Source: a virus (taxonomy: Duplodnaviria; Heunggongvirae; Uroviricota; Caudoviricetes). Taken from it: 6,289 nt of DNA. Position numbers and translations under genes: made by a program. Positions 174 to 6,289 of this stretch are shown one piece after another (the first letter of the stretch is position 1; every line of letters starts with the position of its first letter). The DNA is taken from the IMG/VR virus record IMGVR_UViG_2548876949_000016; one strand, written 5' to 3'. The notes beneath the pieces are model-generated. The model was not told where the DNA came from, made no database searches, and saw only the letters and a program-made list of their open reading frames with translations.

Positions 174-392
174 TTAACGCGGGTATGTAATCATTCTGGC
201 AATGGTTAATGCCGCTGCTTTTTCCAGATTGGTGATATCCTGCTCCAGAGAGGACAGATTTTCAGCCTGCTTAGCCCTGACTTCATTAGCCCATTTCAGA
301 TCCTGCGCTGCATTAATTTTCTGGTGCATCCACTCATAAAGTTCATCATTGGTATAGTCTGGCGCGATGATGACGGGTTCTCGTTTCTGCAT
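174..392 (-). CDS. hypothetical small protein (72 aa), distal gene of the leftward early operon
   Basis: Intact ORF with ATG at 392..390 and a GAGGAA Shine-Dalgarno (complement of 398..403) 5 nt upstream; translation has plausible coiled-coil-like composition; no family recognised. Position is analogous to kil/accessory genes of pL operons (inference only). Confidence 0.5.
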   Translation of the reverse strand: MQKREPVIIAPDYTNDELYEWMHQKINAAQDLKWANEVRAKQAENLSSLEQDITNLEKAAALTIARMITYPR

Positions 393-421
393 ACTGATTC
401 CTCGCGGTGCTGTTTCGCTTA

Positions 422-550
422 TCAGCCATTAGATTTTGCCGAACTGGAAAGCACCTGTTTAAATTCGTTGAAGCTGTGAGCTTCTTCGCCTTCGGCAAGG
501 CCTTCGAAGTATTCTTCGTAAGCCTTTTCCATGATTGTGTCGAAATCCAT
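422..550 (-). CDS. small acidic protein (42 aa, MDFDTIMEKAYEEYFEGLAEGEEAHSFNEFKQVLSSSAKSNG), below the size cut-off of the supplied ORF track
   Basis: Hand translation of the minus strand: ATG at 550..548, stop TGA at 424..422. Start overlaps the stop of the upstream 78-aa ORF in a TGATATG arrangement and is preceded by an AGGTGG Shine-Dalgarno-like motif, suggesting translational coupling. Alternative reading: C-terminal half of one frameshifted gene spanning 422..788. Confidence 0.35.
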   Translation of the reverse strand: MDFDTIMEKAYEEYFEGLAEGEEAHSFNEFKQVLSSSAKSNG

Positions 551-551
551 A

Positions 552-788
552 TCACCCACCTGAATTTCTTTCCAGCCAGCGACGCGCTCCAGATTCGGTT
601 TTAAACGTTTTGCTTTTGGTATACGTCATTGCGGTGAACGTACCGTACTGGTTGGGGAACACGCCACATACCAGAGATTCGCTGTTGCCAAGATCGATAG
701 TATCCATGCTGACCTCATTTCCCCTTAACGCCGGGGTAGCGGAACAAAAACCTGCTGCATAGTTATTAAAGTTGAACCCTGCCGTCAT
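552..788 (-). CDS. hypothetical small protein (78 aa), first gene of the leftward early operon
   Basis: ORF with ATG at 788..786 and a GAGG motif about 9 nt upstream on the minus strand; lies immediately downstream (leftward) of the OL-like operator region; no family recognised. Its last ~20 codons overlap an alternative open frame, so the true 3' end is uncertain. Confidence 0.45.
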   Translation of the reverse strand: MTAGFNFNNYAAGFCSATPALRGNEVSMDTIDLGNSESLVCGVFPNQYGTFTAMTYTKSKTFKTESGARRWLERNSGG

Positions 789-893
789 GTTCTTACGCCT
801 CGGGCTGGCTACTTAACCCCTGACCACTGCCTGGTAACTCGAAGTATTGCCCTGCATTCTGTGGGGCGGGGTGGGTTGGTATGAAAAGAAGGA

Positions 894-930
894 TACCCAT
901 AGGTATTTAAAAAGTAAATACCCATGGGTA
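894..930. promoter_or_regulatory. OL-like operator pair (two 12-bp TACC-N4-GGTA palindromes) with presumed leftward early promoter
   Basis: tacccataggta at 894..905 and the perfect palindrome tacccatgggta at 919..930, 25 bp apart, in the 185-bp gap between the repressor 3' end and the leftward small genes. The same motif recurs three times in the repressor/cro intergenic region. Exact -35/-10 of the leftward promoter could not be assigned confidently. Confidence 0.45.
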
Positions 931-972
931 AATTTTTGCGGTGTCTTAACTGGTGACTAGTTGTTTGGTGAG

Positions 973-1392
973 CTATGATGCGTTTTGTGCTTTCTTTTTA
1001 CGGATTTCTTCGTAGATCATATTGTAATACTGTTTTTTCTCTTCAAGAGTTTTTAATAATTTATCCGCTTCACTTTCTGGCAGTTCGTCTAAGAGATCTA
1101 AAAAAATACGTTGTCGTGGCGTTAGAACCCTTGTTTCATAACTGGAGGCTGTGTTCGTTGATGATGAAACGATACCATCCATCCATCCCCGGGGTAACCC
1201 AAAGGACTCTTCGATAATCTCCACCATATCATCAGCGATCCGTTTTTTTCCCTTTTTCCCCTCTGGGTACAACATTCTTGATACATAAGAAGGCTCGCGC
1301 CCGATCTTTCTGGCCACGTTAACCGCTTTACCATCGCATTTCTCATCACGAATTTTGATGAGTTGCTGTCGTCTAAATTCATATTTGTCCAT
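973..1392 (-). CDS. CI-like prophage repressor (139 aa) with N-terminal helix-turn-helix and no LexA/S24 peptidase domain
   Basis: Divergent from the cro-like gene; N-terminal segment KAVNVARKIGREPSYVSRM looks like a classical HTH; AT-rich codon usage typical of immunity genes; C-terminal half is charged/coiled-coil-like with no Ser-Lys dyad or S24 fold signature; flanked by repeated operator palindromes. Confidence 0.75.
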   Translation of the reverse strand: MDKYEFRRQQLIKIRDEKCDGKAVNVARKIGREPSYVSRMLYPEGKKGKKRIADDMVEIIEESFGLPRGWMDGIVSSSTNTASSYETRVLTPRQRIFLDLLDELPESEADKLLKTLEEKKQYYNMIYEEIRKKKAQNAS

Positions 1393-1398
1393 AGGTAA

Positions 1399-1468
1399 AT
1401 AATAGATGCGATTACCGCAAGGTAAACAACCTGTGGGTATTGACTTTTGTTTACCTGTGGGTATTCTT
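1399..1468. promoter_or_regulatory. OR-like tripartite operator with divergent promoters (pRM-like leftward, pR-like rightward)
   Basis: Three operator copies: taccgcaaggta 1413..1424, aacctgtgggta 1428..1439, tacctgtgggta 1452..1463. Rightward promoter: -35 TTGACT 1440..1445, -10 TATTCT 1462..1467 (16-bp spacer; ATTCTT 1463..1468 with 17), overlapped by the 1452..1463 site, followed by SD AAGGAG 1482..1487 and ATG 1493. Leftward promoter candidate: -10 TATTAT (complement of 1399..1404) about 7 nt from the repressor ATG, with -35 overlapping the 1413..1424 site. Confidence 0.5.
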
Positions 1469-1492
1469 TGCTGTGTTTACTAAGGAGTAGCT

Positions 1493-1774
1493 ATGGAAGA
1501 ATTAAGAATATTTCTCAATTCTCTTTCGTCAGATGAACAGCGTATGTTTGCATGCGAGTGTGGTACCAGCATCGGTTATCTAAGAAAGGCATTGAGTAAA
1601 GGTCAAGTGTTAGGGGCATCGTTATGTGTCCTTATTGAGCGAGCCAGTAATGGTGAAGTTACACGTCAGCAACTAAGGCCTTTTGATTGGATGAATATTT
1701 GGCCCGAGCTGGAAGATACCAAAACGTTAACACAACCACTTTCTAGGAGCTTGATTCATGAAAATCAAGCATGA
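1493..1774 (+). CDS. Cro-like HTH regulator of the YdaS family (93 aa)
   Basis: First rightward gene after the operator/promoter region with strong SD AAGGAG; segment SLCVLIERASNGEVTRQQLRPFDW resembles the conserved core I recall for Rac YdaS-type Cro-like proteins; 3' end overlaps the next gene by 17 nt. Confidence 0.7.
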   Translation: MEELRIFLNSLSSDEQRMFACECGTSIGYLRKALSKGQVLGASLCVLIERASNGEVTRQQLRPFDWMNIWPELEDTKTLTQPLSRSLIHENQA

Positions 1775-5307: not shown

Positions 5308-5994
5308 ATGACCCCAATAAAAATATTTATGACTATTGCTGATTTCAAACGGCCTAAATTGGAGCTCCCAAACGGGGCAAACAAACTACTACTGCACTCT
5401 TGCTGTGCTCCATGTTCCGGTGAAGTGATGGAGGCGCTTCAGGCCTCGGGAATCGACTACACCATCTTTTTCTACAACCCGAACATTCATCCTCAGAAAG
5501 AGTATTTAATTCGTAAGGATGAAAATATTCGCTTTGCTGAACAACACGGCGTGCCGTTTATCGATGCTGATTACGACACCGACAACTGGTTTGAACGTGC
5601 CAAAGGAATGGAATGGGAGCCTGAGAGGGGGATCCGTTGTACCATGTGTTTTGACATGCGTTTTGAGCGGACAGCGTTGTACGCTGCTGAAAATGGTTTC
5701 AGTGTGATCAGCAGTTCACTGGGCATTTCACGCTGGAAAAATATGCAGCAGGTTAACGAGTGTGGGCGGCGAGCTGTTGCGCATTATCCGGGTATGGTGT
5801 ACTGGGATTATAACTGGCGCAAGCAGGGCGGCTCGTCCCGTATGATTGAAATCAGCAAGCGCGAAAAATTCTATCAGCAGGAATATTGTGGCTGTGTGTA
5901 TTCTCTGCGCGATACCAATCTACACCGCAAATCTCAGGGACGCCCTCTTATCAAAATTGGCCAACTCCACTACGGAAAAGAAGAGAAGGAGTGA
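5308..5994 (+). CDS. queH: QueH-like epoxyqueuosine reductase (DUF208 family, 228 aa), prophage cargo
   Basis: Three cysteine motifs that I recall as the QueH/DUF208 signature: [11 protein letters not shown] (nt ~5389..5421), [10 protein letters not shown] (~5638..5667) and EYCGCVYS (~5881..5904). Separated from the upstream gene by a 153-bp gap containing TTGACA at 5182..5187. No convincing Shine-Dalgarno before ATG 5308 or the alternative ATG 5329, so the start is uncertain. Confidence 0.6.
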
Positions 5995-6289
5995 TTTTAT
6001 GGATCACCTTTCTGATTGATTTCATATTGGCGAGGTGACGTGAGTTAAGTAGAATGGCTGCGGGTGCTTGAGGCTATCTGTCTCAGGCATGAACACTGAA
6101 AGGCAGATAGAGAAAAGCCCCAGTTAACATTTCGCGTCCTGCAAGACGCTTAACATTAATCTGAGGCCCAATCTATGTCTCACAAATGTAGGTTAGCCTC
6201 TTACGTGCCGAAAGGCAAGGGGAAGCAGGCTATTGTTAACACCAAGCTGTAATGTCCCCTTTGAACCATTCTAAAATGTCCCCAGACAA

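What the first reader, a model, noticed from the sequence alone, without database searches (positions are those of the whole stretch)
789..1492. Lambda-style genetic switch built on a TACC-N4-GGTA operator family
Five copies of a 12-bp palindrome (TACC-N4-GGTA) occur: two at 894..905 and 919..930 left of the repressor, three at 1413..1424, 1428..1439 and 1452..1463 between the divergent repressor and cro-like genes. The rightmost overlaps the -10 of a TTGACT-type rightward promoter, the leftmost overlaps the presumed repressor-promoter -35, and the middle one sits where repressor could activate its own promoter. A weaker 10/12 copy (tgtccataggta, 1386..1397) overlaps the repressor start codon. 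This is a recognisable lambda OR1/2/3-type architecture with a distinct operator sequence.
Basis: seen in the sequence. Interest (0 to 1): 0.45.

Follow-up and report, generated by a model that had tools for sequence, protein, structure and literature searches.

The report
Prophage repressor operators, TACC-N4-GGTA type
The repeated TACC-N4-GGTA palindromes are very probably the operator sites of a lambda-style lysis/lysogeny switch in an E. coli prophage: an ordinary kind of system, but with a repressor DNA-binding domain and operator sequence for which I found no published description, and which recur in phages across many Proteobacteria.

Summary
Four exact TACC-N4-GGTA palindromes (894, 919, 1413, 1452; 0.01 expected by chance) and one 7/8 copy (1428) sit in two clusters flanking a 139-aa leftward repressor gene. 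The "weak sixth copy" at 1386 is not conserved in relatives.

The window is the immunity region of a Rac/Qin-like lambdoid prophage, present in about 15% of complete E. coli genomes.

Comparative evidence is decisive. In about 40 independent loci from gamma- and beta-Proteobacteria that share the repressor's N-terminal 73-aa domain, the motif lies about 73 and 33 bp upstream of the repressor ATG. A half-degenerate site lies between them, and a pair 25-26 bp apart forms an OL/PL unit downstream. A Cro (YdaS-like) protein is co-conserved. The reverse search, by operator pair alone, recovers the same proteins.

The promoter geometry matches lambda: OR1 lies over the PR spacer/-10, OR2 at -41.5 of a leaderless PRM, and OR3 over the PRM -35.

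The C-terminal part is DicA-like, not an S24 protease, so induction probably needs an antirepressor. None was found.

Verdict: an uncharacterised member of a known kind, of modest interest.

The parts
894..905 (.). OL1: exact operator TACCCATAGGTA. It overlaps the spacer and the first two bases of the -10 of the leftward promoter PL.
   Evidence: Exact match. A pair of sites 24-26 bp apart downstream of the repressor gene is found in 38 of the 51 loci scanned (about 35 independent ones), with the -35 directly after the first site and the -10 starting in the last TA of the second.
919..930 (.). OL2: exact operator TACCCATGGGTA, a perfect 12-bp palindrome that abuts the PL -35.
890..918 (-). Predicted PL promoter: -35 TTTACT (918..913), 17-bp spacer, -10 TATCCT (895..890). 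It drives the ydfA/ydfB/ydfC-like left operon.
   Evidence: Read from the sequence. It has the same layout as PR and as the OL/PL units of relatives. The left-arm genes match the Qin dicBF operon. The simple scan did not call it because it is weaker than that scan's threshold.
884..930 (-). Terminator-like hairpin formed by OL2 and OL1 on the repressor-sense strand, followed by UCCUUCUUUU. It is a possible terminator of the PRM transcript.
   Evidence: 16-pair stem plus T-run. The RNA fold gives -22.2 kcal/mol with z = -6.7. No comparable T-run is apparent by eye after the OL pair in relatives, so this is a secondary feature that may be specific to this window.
973..1392 (-). Repressor gene, 139 aa. 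[quoted passage not shown]
   Evidence: ORF. phrog_5736 'transcriptional regulator', E 6e-70. No Pfam hit. The C-terminal part is 33% identical to DicA residues 84-129, E 2e-7. The AlphaFold2 model has pLDDT 84.6. The best PDB fold hit is the Rep repressor of the Rep-Ant complex, 5D50.
1399..1426 (-). Predicted PRM promoter: -35 TTTACC (1426..1421), 16-bp spacer, -10 TATTAT (1404..1399). The -10 ends 6 nt before the ATG at 1392, so the mRNA is predicted to be leaderless.
   Evidence: A TAgAAT-like hexamer at -12..-7 and TTTACC at the -35 are conserved in 34 distinct relatives, with no Shine-Dalgarno sequence. Leaderless repressor mRNAs were shown for PaaR2 (PMC8630535) and RacR (PMC9638921).
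1413..1424 (.). OR3: exact operator TACCGCAAGGTA. It overlaps the PRM -35 and spacer and is the predicted site of negative autoregulation.
   Evidence: A site with at most one mismatch sits at this position in 37 of the 46 anchored loci, exact in 28, 32-35 bp upstream of the ATG.
1428..1439 (.). OR2: AACCTGTGGGTA, a 7/8 copy. The perfect half faces PR and abuts its -35. The degenerate half faces PRM. Its centre is 41.5 bp upstream of the predicted PRM start.
   Evidence: In relatives this position always has a conserved PR-side TACC and a degenerate PRM-side half.
1452..1463 (.). OR1: exact operator TACCTGTGGGTA. It overlaps the PR spacer and the first two bases of the -10.
   Evidence: This is the most conserved site in the family, with consensus TTACCYRYRGGTAA and 2 bits at each TACC/GGTA position. 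It is present with at most one mismatch in 46 of 50 loci.
1440..1467 (+). PR promoter: -35 TTGACT, 16-bp spacer, -10 TATTCT.
   Evidence: The TTGA of the -35 directly after OR2 is conserved in relatives, seen as TCAA in repressor orientation.
1493..1774 (+). cro-like gene, 93 aa, YdaS family. Residues 1-73 belong to the immunity cassette. The 20-aa tail belongs to the CP-933P-type ydaS/ydaT junction.
   Evidence: PF15943 E 9e-6, below the Pfam cutoff. PDB 'Cro' entries 8C7K and 8CO2, E 1e-10. 73% identical to mEp043 Cro over residues 1-73. Co-conserved with the repressor domain in nearly all loci.
1751..1768 (.). YdaT (CII-like) operator OM: TTGATTCATGAAAATCAA, an exact TTGATT-N6-AATCAA. It marks the PRE-type establishment promoter region.
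   Evidence: Exact match. This is the sequence footprinted for CP-933P YdaT at the end of ydaS (PMC9986795).
1758..2183 (+). ydaT, the cII analogue, 141 aa.
   Evidence: PF06254. phrog_163 'CII-like'. About 96% identical to the crystallised CP-933P YdaT, 8BT1, E 1e-88.
1386..1397 (.). It is not supported as an operator.
   Evidence: It has two mismatches. The GGAC/GGAT part is fixed by codons 1-2 (Met-Asp). No TACC precedes the ATG in the other loci.

Best explanation
The window carries the immunity region of a Rac/Qin-like lambdoid prophage. The 139-aa protein is its CI-type repressor. Its N-terminal helix-turn-helix domain binds as a dimer to 12-14 bp palindromes, TTACC-YRYR-GGTAA.

In the lysogen, repressor on OR1 and on the weaker OR2 (24 bp centre to centre) blocks PR and so silences cro/ydaS, ydaT and the replication genes. 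Repressor on OL1 and OL2 (25 bp apart) blocks PL and so silences the ydfABC-dicB-type left operon.

Repressor at OR2 is centred at -41.5 of PRM and could stimulate PRM. At higher concentration OR3 is filled and occludes the PRM -35. The PRM message is leaderless.

The YdaS-like Cro is predicted to bind the same sites and shut PRM. YdaT, bound at TTGATT-N6-AATCAA (1751-1768), provides CII-like establishment transcription.

The C-terminal domain is a DicA-like helical module, not an S24 autoprotease. Induction therefore most likely requires an antirepressor rather than RecA-stimulated self-cleavage.

Shown here: the sites, their statistics, their geometry, and their strict co-conservation with the repressor domain and Cro. 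Inferred: who binds, cooperativity, activation at OR2, the leaderless start and the induction route.
For: Motif statistics: 4 exact sites against 0.01 expected, and no other exact site in 46 kb of the same prophage and flanking host DNA.

Geometry: the PR and PRM hexamers overlap the sites, and PL has the same operator/-35/operator/-10 layout as PR.

Comparative, forward test: 45 genome loci were found through the 73-aa domain alone, in Edwardsiella, Klebsiella, Pantoea, Yersinia, Aeromonas, Neisseria, Burkholderiales, Xanthomonas and others. They hold 123 exact sites in 268 kb, where about 4 are expected from 4^-8 per position. Nearly all lie 71-75 and 32-35 bp upstream of the ATG, or form a downstream pair 25-26 bp apart. 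Information content is 2 bits at TACC/GGTA and low in the flanks. The same layout is seen in phage mEp043 and in Salmonella and Pantoea prophages whose repressors carry an S24 domain.

Comparative, reverse test: of 120 IMG/VR loci retrieved only by the operator-pair pattern, 75 encode the domain and 87 the Cro homolog, with sites at the same offsets.

Cro is co-conserved with the domain.

The PRM -10 is conserved at -12..-7 with no Shine-Dalgarno sequence.

Repressor identity: phrog_5736; an XRE-like helical fold whose best PDB hit is Rep of the Rep-Ant complex; a DicA-like C-terminal part.

The YdaT gene and its footprinted operator are both present.

Experimentally characterised analogues with the same architecture exist: PaaR2/YdaS/YdaT (PMC8630535), RacR (PMC9638921) and DicA/DicC/Rem (PMC10448788).
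Against: There is no binding, footprint, transcription-start or reporter data for this protein or for any member of its family. I found no paper containing the operator strings searched, and no paper that describes mEp043 immunity by title or abstract.

OR2 and OR3 are only 15 bp apart centre to centre, roughly opposite faces of the helix. Lambda-like pairwise cooperativity there is unlikely, and the occupancy order is unknown.

The PL hexamers are weak and were not called by the promoter scan.

For the proposed induction route, no antirepressor (Rem homolog), no LexA box and no PHROG-annotated antirepressor was found in 46 kb of the prophage.

The fold match to Rep is weak (E 1e-3, large rmsd).
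Confidence: 0.85

Rival explanations
1. The palindromes are primarily the binding sites of the YdaS-like Cro protein, or of Cro only. The 139-aa protein recognises something else in the intergenic region.
For: Cro homologs track the operator layout at least as well as the repressor domain: 87 against 75 of 120 pattern-derived loci. Some loci keep Cro and the sites while the repressor's recognition helix is different.
Against: The missing domain hits are mostly diverged or truncated homologs. Three of the four such loci inspected still show a recognisably related N-terminal domain. In Klebsiella elements without any cro gene, the sites about 73 and 33 bp upstream of the ATG persist next to the repressor. 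In every characterised switch of this architecture both proteins share the operators (PMC8630535). No other conserved repeat exists in the 100-bp intergenic region.
Confidence: 0.05
2. The left pair (894-930) is simply the intrinsic terminator of the repressor gene, not an operator/promoter unit.
For: A 16-bp stem, -22.2 kcal/mol, z = -6.7, followed by a T-rich run and located 43 nt after the stop codon.
Against: Both arms are exact copies of the OR half-sites. The same pair with the same 25-26 bp spacing and embedded -35/-10 hexamers is seen in about 35 independent relatives. In these no comparable T-run is apparent after the pair, and the hairpins are mostly much weaker, -5.7 to -20.6 kcal/mol. 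A dual role, operators that also terminate PRM transcripts in this prophage, is plausible at roughly 0.3 and is compatible with the main explanation.
Confidence: 0.05
3. The sites are chance palindromes, or targets of an unrelated host factor.
For: None beyond the short length of the motif. A 5-Mb genome should hold about 76 chance copies (4^-8 per position, own arithmetic).
Against: Clustering: 0.01 expected against 4 found. The fixed offsets hold across genera from Escherichia to Neisseria and Xanthomonas, which have different hosts.
Confidence: 0.01

Closest known systems
Bacteriophage lambda CI/Cro/CII switch (OR1-3, OL, PR, PRM, PL, PRE)
   Same: Divergent repressor and cro genes. Three sites in OR. 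OR1 lies over PR, a weaker OR2 lies next to the PR -35 at about -42 of PRM, and OR3 lies over PRM. The repressor mRNA is leaderless. A second operator cluster sits at PL beyond the repressor gene. There is a CII-type establishment site at the cro/cII junction.
   Different: The operators are 12-14 bp (TTACCYRYRGGTAA) rather than 17 bp. The OR2-OR3 spacing is 15 bp, not 23. OL has two sites here rather than three. The repressor has no S24 protease domain and no Pfam-recognised HTH. Cro and CII are YdaS and YdaT types, unrelated in sequence to lambda Cro and CII.
CP-933P (E. coli O157:H7) PaaR2/YdaS/YdaT switch (PMC8630535, PMC9986795)
   Same: A Rac-like cryptic-prophage immunity region with a leaderless repressor, a YdaS Cro analogue, OR and OL clusters, and bistability. 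The window's YdaT is about 96% identical to the crystallised CP-933P protein, and its operator TTGATT-N6-AATCAA is identical.
   Different: The repressor is unrelated in sequence: a 74-residue PDB chain named 'Phage repressor protein CI', 7NKV, scores only E 0.62, and whether that chain is PaaR2 was not checked. The operators differ, being 18-bp palindromes based on GTTTAGTAA. There is no paaA2-parE2 toxin-antitoxin pair downstream of the repressor. The mosaic joint lies at the 3' end of cro, around position 1711.
Qin prophage DicA/DicC with antirepressor Rem (PMC10448788), and Gifsy short repressors with LexA-controlled antirepressors (PMC3121763)
   Same: A short repressor of 135-150 aa without an S24 domain. 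The C-terminal 46 residues are 33% identical to DicA. The left operon is ydfA-ydfB-ydfC(-dicB), as downstream of dicA.
   Different: [quoted passage not shown] The NCBIfam DicA score is 24.5 bits against a cutoff of 101. No Rem homolog, dinI-antirepressor operon or LexA box was found in 46 kb of the prophage.
Rac prophage RacR/YdaS/YdaT (PMC9638921)
   Same: The same gene order. In some strains the prophage sits at the Rac attachment site ttcA. There are three operators, with a leaderless repressor promoter.
   Different: There is no detectable similarity to RacR. The RacR operators are (T/A)TAGGC-N3-GCCTA(T/A). YdaS and YdaT are only distantly related, 31% for YdaT.
Phage mEp043 cI/cro, the only cultured phage type with this cassette (together with phage CharmingMan)
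   Same: The repressor N-terminal domain is 65% identical, with the recognition-helix stretch REPSYVSRMLYPEGK identical. Cro is 73% identical. The OR and OL layouts are the same.
   Different: mEp043 cI is 228 aa with an S24 peptidase domain, so it is presumably SOS-cleavable. It has a lambda-type cII, N, O and primase rather than YdaT and a DnaC-like protein. I found no published operator analysis.

Membership tests
Lambda-type CI/Cro bistable immunity switch (functional class) | Divergently transcribed repressor and cro genes separated by a short region with multiple repeated dyad-symmetric operators | tested here: met
   Genes at 973-1392(-) and 1493-1774(+). Three sites lie in the 100-bp spacer.
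Lambda-type CI/Cro bistable immunity switch (functional class) | Operators overlap the -35/-10 elements of PR and PRM so that occupancy is mutually exclusive with RNA polymerase | tested here: met
   Predicted hexamers overlap OR1 and OR3. The arrangement is conserved in relatives. The promoters are predicted, not mapped.
Lambda-type CI/Cro bistable immunity switch (functional class) | A second operator cluster controlling a leftward early promoter (OL/PL) | tested here: met
   Sites at 894-905 and 919-930 with embedded TTTACT-17-TATCCT. The unit is conserved in about 35 independent loci.
Lambda-type CI/Cro bistable immunity switch (functional class) | Repressor and Cro both bind the operators with opposite site preference, giving bistability | not testable with these tools
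   Only co-conservation of both proteins with the sites is available.
LexA/CI S24 autocleavable repressors (Pfam PF00717) | C-terminal S24 peptidase domain with a Ser/Lys dyad and a cleavable linker | tested here: not met
   No PF00717 hit. The protein is 139 aa with a helical C-terminal part. Relatives with the same N-terminal domain do carry PF00717.
DicA / Gifsy-type short, antirepressor-controlled repressors | Short repressor (about 135-150 aa) lacking a cleavage domain | tested here: met
   139 aa, no S24 domain.
DicA / Gifsy-type short, antirepressor-controlled repressors | Whole-protein homology to DicA (NCBIfam NF007257), including the HTH_3-type N-terminal domain | tested here: not met
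   Only residues 86-136 match. The score is 24.5 bits against a cutoff of 101. BLASTP aligns only residues 89-134. There is no HTH_3 hit.
DicA / Gifsy-type short, antirepressor-controlled repressors | A cognate small antirepressor (Rem or GfoA type), often in a LexA-controlled operon | tested here: inconclusive
   There is no Rem homolog, no CTGT-N8-ACAG box in 46 kb and no PHROG antirepressor among 8 candidate ORFs. Antirepressors can act in trans from other prophages (PMC3121763).
RacR family | Sequence homology to RacR and operators TAGGC-N3-GCCTA | tested here: not met
   BLASTP finds no significant alignment. The operator is different (one search compared).
YdaS/Cro family (Pfam PF15943) | Match to the YdaS model above the gathering score | tested here: inconclusive
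   25.8 bits against a cutoff of 30. However, E is 1e-10 to PDB 'Cro' chains 8C7K and 8CO2, and phrog_35 scores E 5e-23.
YdaT (CII-analogue) family with TTGATT-N6-AATCAA operator | YdaT homolog plus its inverted repeat at the ydaS/ydaT junction | tested here: met
   PF06254 scores 37.8 bits against a cutoff of 21. About 96% identity to 8BT1. The exact repeat lies at 1751-1768.

The most novel reading that the evidence does not exclude
The cassette of repressor N-terminal domain, TACC-N4-GGTA operators and Cro is an ancient, portable immunity specificity. The domain has no Pfam model and spans 613 clusters at 50% identity. It is spread over gamma- and beta-Proteobacteria and has been fused repeatedly to different C-terminal sensor modules: several S24 autoprotease types, a DicA-like helical module, and others.

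If the shared half-sites and the identical recognition helix mean shared specificity, the 139-aa protein carried by about 15% of E. coli genomes acts as a natural non-cleavable ('ind-minus-like') repressor. It would make its host immune to SOS-inducible phages of the mEp043 type and would dominantly block induction of such prophages.

The two cassette types co-occur in 2 E. coli genomes where 7.9 are expected. That is a weak hint, not corrected for phylogeny.
Probability: 0.35. Interest if true: 0.5.

Novelty: new member of a known kind. Interest (0 to 1): 0.35.

Why it matters
The result gives a defined operator consensus and promoter map for an immunity type carried by roughly one in seven complete E. 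coli genomes, including many STEC O103, O145, O111, O55 and O157 strains. The repressor there is still annotated as 'hypothetical protein'.

That repressor keeps a dicB/kil-type toxic left operon and the phage replication genes silent. Knowing its sites therefore makes prophage induction, cross-immunity and cryptic-prophage toxicity in these strains testable.

The family also offers more than 100 natural operator and repressor variants, and a clean natural example of one DNA-binding specificity coupled to alternative induction modules, self-cleaving or antirepressor-dependent. That is useful for studying how induction pathways are swapped, and for building orthogonal switches.

It does not reveal a new principle.

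Tried and rejected
1. Sequence-only annotation of the repressor failed. Pfam gave nothing for the whole protein or for the 78-aa N-terminal part, even at E up to 10. A PDB sequence search and a profile search gave only noise, including Z-alpha domains of ADAR1 at E around 0.1-0.5. Fold assignment rests on AlphaFold2 plus Foldseek.

2. The sixth 'weak' operator at 1386-1397 is rejected. It is not conserved in any relative, and half of it is fixed by the Met-Asp codons.

3. 'Terminator only' for the left pair is rejected, because the pair recurs in relatives where no T-run is apparent. A dual role is kept as possible.

4. Homology to RacR is rejected.

5. The search for the induction trigger led nowhere. 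There is no Rem homolog at the rem position next to hokD or anywhere else in L056 or L001. There is no LexA box. PHROG scans of 8 small or unknown ORFs gave no antirepressor. The ImmA/IrrE protease with an HTH gene seen in the O55:H7 copy is absent from the window's own prophage.

6. Literature. No paper contains the operator strings or the RefSeq protein accessions. The 13 papers listed for mEp043 do not concern its immunity, judged by title and abstract only.

7. Rfam found no DicF or other RNA in the switch region, only sok at the far right end.
Full report
**1. What is in the sequence**

An exact scan for TACCNNNNGGTA finds four matches in the 6289-bp window, at 894-905, 919-930, 1413-1424 and 1452-1463. 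Shuffled sequence gives 0.01 on average, and no shuffle reached four.

The 'weak' copy at 1386-1397 has two mismatches. At that stringency the window as a whole is only mildly enriched, 30 matches against 17 expected.

The sites flank a 139-aa ORF on the minus strand (973-1392). They lie between it and a divergent 93-aa ORF (1493-1774).

A consensus promoter scan independently returns TTGACT-16-TATTCT on the plus strand (1440-1467) and TTTACC-16-TATTAT on the minus strand (1426-1399). All coordinates in the finding are right.

**2. Genomic context**

The window is 100% identical to lambdoid prophages of many E. coli strains.

- The core cassette (860-1500) is present in 822 of 5426 complete genomes, almost always as a single copy.
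- In O55:H7 the prophage sits at ttcA, the Rac attachment site. In the strain that matches the whole window it lies next to potC.
- The gene order is int-xis-exo-kil-(dicB)-ydfC-ydfB-ydfA | repressor | ydaS-like cro, ydaT, O-like HTH protein, DnaC-like ATPase, DUF1627, DUF977, QueH, hok/sok.
- The left arm is the equivalent of the Qin dicBF operon that DicA represses (PMC10448788).

**3. The repressor**

The 139-aa protein has no Pfam match and no relative in the PDB by sequence. It matches phrog_5736 'transcriptional regulator' at E 6e-70.

Its last 50 residues resemble the C-terminus of DicA: NCBIfam NF007257 matches partially, and BLASTP gives 33% identity at E 2e-7. RacR is unrelated.

An AlphaFold2 model (pLDDT 84.6) has three parts:
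- a four-helix N-terminal domain, residues 3-63;
- a disordered linker, residues 77-87;
- a C-terminal helical hairpin, residues 92-138.

The best Foldseek hit in the PDB is Rep, the repressor of the Rep-Ant complex of a Salmonella temperate phage (5D50). It is followed by many XRE/Cro/C-protein HTH domains. The scores are weak, E 1e-3.

**4. The key comparative result**

Database homologs show that residues 1-73 are a separate module (MDKYE...REPSYVSRMLYPEGKKGKKRIADDM...LPRGWMDG). This module is 65-82% identical to the N-termini of 220-242-aa repressors that carry an S24 peptidase domain, in Salmonella, Klebsiella, Pantoea, Edwardsiella, Yersinia and phage mEp043. Several different C-terminal types occur. 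Across 1.84 billion representative proteins the module defines 613 clusters at E up to 1e-3, with lengths from 72 to 399 aa.

In mEp043 and in Salmonella and Pantoea prophages the repressor-cro spacer has the same three-site arrangement, and a pair of sites lies 0.8-1.5 kb downstream.

A scan of one genome per species with the domain alignment returned 45 loci, from Enterobacterales, Aeromonas, Neisseria, Burkholderiales, Xanthomonadales, Nitrosomonas and others.
- They contain 123 exact sites in 268 kb, against about 4 expected by chance.
- Nearly all lie 71-75 and 32-35 bp upstream of the repressor ATG, or form a downstream pair 25-26 bp apart. The window's upstream offsets are 71 and 32 bp.

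Aligned, the loci give these consensus features:
- OR1 = TTACCYRYRGGTAA, with 2 bits at every TACC/GGTA position.
- OR2, 25 bp further on, has a conserved TACC on the PR side and a degenerate half on the PRM side.
- OR3, 40 bp from OR1, has conserved ends and a free centre.
- The flanks are unconserved.

The divergent gene in these loci encodes a homolog of the window's Cro (M-E/D-ELR-YLN-LS...CGT-IGYLRKA...VTR..L.P.DW..IWPEL). It is 73% identical in mEp043.

The reverse experiment agrees. 120 IMG/VR loci were retrieved only by the pattern site-N12-14-site. Of these, 75 encode the domain and 87 the Cro homolog, with sites at the canonical offsets.

The sites therefore belong to this protein pair and not to the host or to neighbouring genes. 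The neighbours differ from locus to locus.

**5. How the switch is laid out**

I use lambda nomenclature.

- PR: -35 TTGACT directly follows OR2. OR1 fills the spacer and supplies the TA of the -10 TATTCT.
- PL, on the minus strand, is built identically: OL2 (930-919), then TTTACT, a 17-bp spacer containing OL1, then TATCCT. The same construction holds in about 35 independent relatives, with -35 hexamers such as TTGACA, TTTACT or TAGACA.
- PRM: -35 TTTACC overlaps OR3. A TAgAAT-like -10 is conserved at -12..-7 from the ATG, with no ribosome-binding site. This predicts a leaderless mRNA, as shown experimentally for PaaR2 and RacR (PMC8630535; PMC9638921) and as known for lambda cI (established knowledge).
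- OR2 is centred 41.5 bp upstream of that start, the position from which lambda CI activates PRM.
- OR1-OR2 and OL1-OL2 are 24-25 bp apart, the same helical face, suitable for pairwise cooperativity. Together with the systematically weakened OR2, this suggests cooperative filling. This step is inferred.
- OR2-OR3 are 15 bp apart, which is unlike lambda.
- The 'sixth' site over the start codon is not found in relatives.

**6. The left pair as a hairpin**

On the repressor strand OL2 and OL1 fold into a 16-bp hairpin (-22.2 kcal/mol, z = -6.7) followed by a T-rich run, 43 nt after the stop codon. In relatives no comparable T-run is apparent, and the hairpins are mostly weaker.

I conclude that the conserved function is operator/promoter. 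Termination of the PRM transcript may be an added role in this prophage.

**7. Establishment arm**

The window's YdaT is about 96% identical to the crystallised CP-933P YdaT, 8BT1. Its footprinted inverted repeat TTGATT-N6-AATCAA occurs exactly once, at 1751-1768, across the end of ydaS and the start of ydaT.

The window's Cro carries a 20-residue tail beyond the family's usual end. The mosaic joint between the TACC-type cassette and CP-933P-type DNA is therefore near position 1711.

**8. Induction**

The protein lacks an S24 domain, so RecA-dependent self-cleavage is unlikely.

Short repressors of this kind are inactivated by antirepressors: Gifsy GfoR/GtgR (PMC3121763), DicA with Rem (PMC10448788), and the Rep-Ant structure (5D50).

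I found no Rem homolog, no LexA box and no annotated antirepressor in 46 kb of the prophage. The trigger is therefore unknown and may act in trans.

**9. Cross-immunity hint**

The window-type cassette occurs in 824 complete E. coli genomes, the mEp043-type in 52, and either one in 874. Both together therefore occur in 2 genomes, against 7.9 expected under independence. The Poisson P is about 0.015 by my own arithmetic and ignores phylogeny.

This is compatible with shared specificity but does not prove it.

**10. Comparison and verdict**

The system works like the lambda switch. Its closest characterised relatives are the Rac-like switches of CP-933P, Rac and Qin. It is not a member of the S24 CI family, of RacR, or, by the whole-protein criterion, of DicA.

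I found no publication on the operator or on the DNA-binding domain.

It is an uncharacterised member of a well-known kind. Interest is modest.

Noticed in passing
window 1751-1768 and 1758-2183: There is an exact copy of the YdaT operator TTGATT-N6-AATCAA at the ydaS/ydaT junction. The YdaT protein is about 96% identical to the crystallised CP-933P YdaT (8BT1). The establishment arm is therefore the characterised CP-933P type, joined to a different repressor/cro cassette. Cro carries a 20-aa tail after residue 73, which puts the mosaic joint near position 1711.
   Followed up: yes
window 5308-5994: An epoxyqueuosine reductase QueH gene (PF02677, E 1e-65) is carried as a cargo gene in the prophage, between the DUF977/Ren-like gene and hok/sok.
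   Followed up: no
window 6062-6234: Rfam finds a sok antitoxin RNA (115.6 bits). In identical genomes hokD is annotated from about position 6232. This is a hok/sok type I toxin-antitoxin locus at the right end of the window.
   Followed up: partly
window 174-788 (- strand): The left operon encodes homologs of Qin ydfA (DUF1391), ydfB and ydfC, the first genes of the dicBF operon. PL repression here presumably silences dicB/kil-type division inhibitors further left. No DicF RNA lies inside the window.
   Followed up: partly
window 1122-1382 (- strand, other frame); proteins P0010, P0016, P0019: Some E. coli genomes encode 135-136-aa chimeric ORFs (MNLDDSNSSKFVM...) that start in another frame of the repressor gene and rejoin the repressor sequence. 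These are frameshifted, probably inactive, repressor alleles.
   Followed up: no
L009, L010, L013, L015, L016, L018, L019 (Klebsiella): S24 repressors with the same N-terminal domain sit without any divergent cro. Sites still lie about 73 and 33 bp upstream of the MDKYE start. An OL-type pair lies about 0.9 kb downstream, before an N-like gene and holin/endolysin genes, followed by tail genes (L009) or, in L010, a Cloacin/Pyocin_S gene. This looks like a defective prophage or bacteriocin/tailocin cluster under the same repressor type.
   Followed up: partly
L068, L163 (inspected); L072, L079, L100, L105, L172 have the same site and Cro pattern (IMG/VR): These loci keep the Cro homolog and a similar TACC-N4-GGTA layout: two or three sites spanning 39 bp, plus a pair 24 bp apart. 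In L068 the repressor's HTH reads ATGINQGELSGLL instead of REPSYVSRML. The recognition helix has diverged while the half-sites have not, which is unexplained.
   Followed up: partly
E. coli complete genomes: The window-type and mEp043-type cassettes co-occur in only 2 genomes, where 7.9 would be expected if they were independent (824 and 52 carriers among 5426). Six genomes carry two copies of the window-type cassette.
   Followed up: partly
L001 18514-19352 (O55:H7 copy of the prophage): An HTH protein plus an ImmA/IrrE-family metalloprotease pair lies downstream of hokD in the O55:H7 prophage. It is absent from the prophage that matches the whole window. ImmA-type proteases cleave repressors in other elements. 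A link to this repressor was not examined.
   Followed up: no
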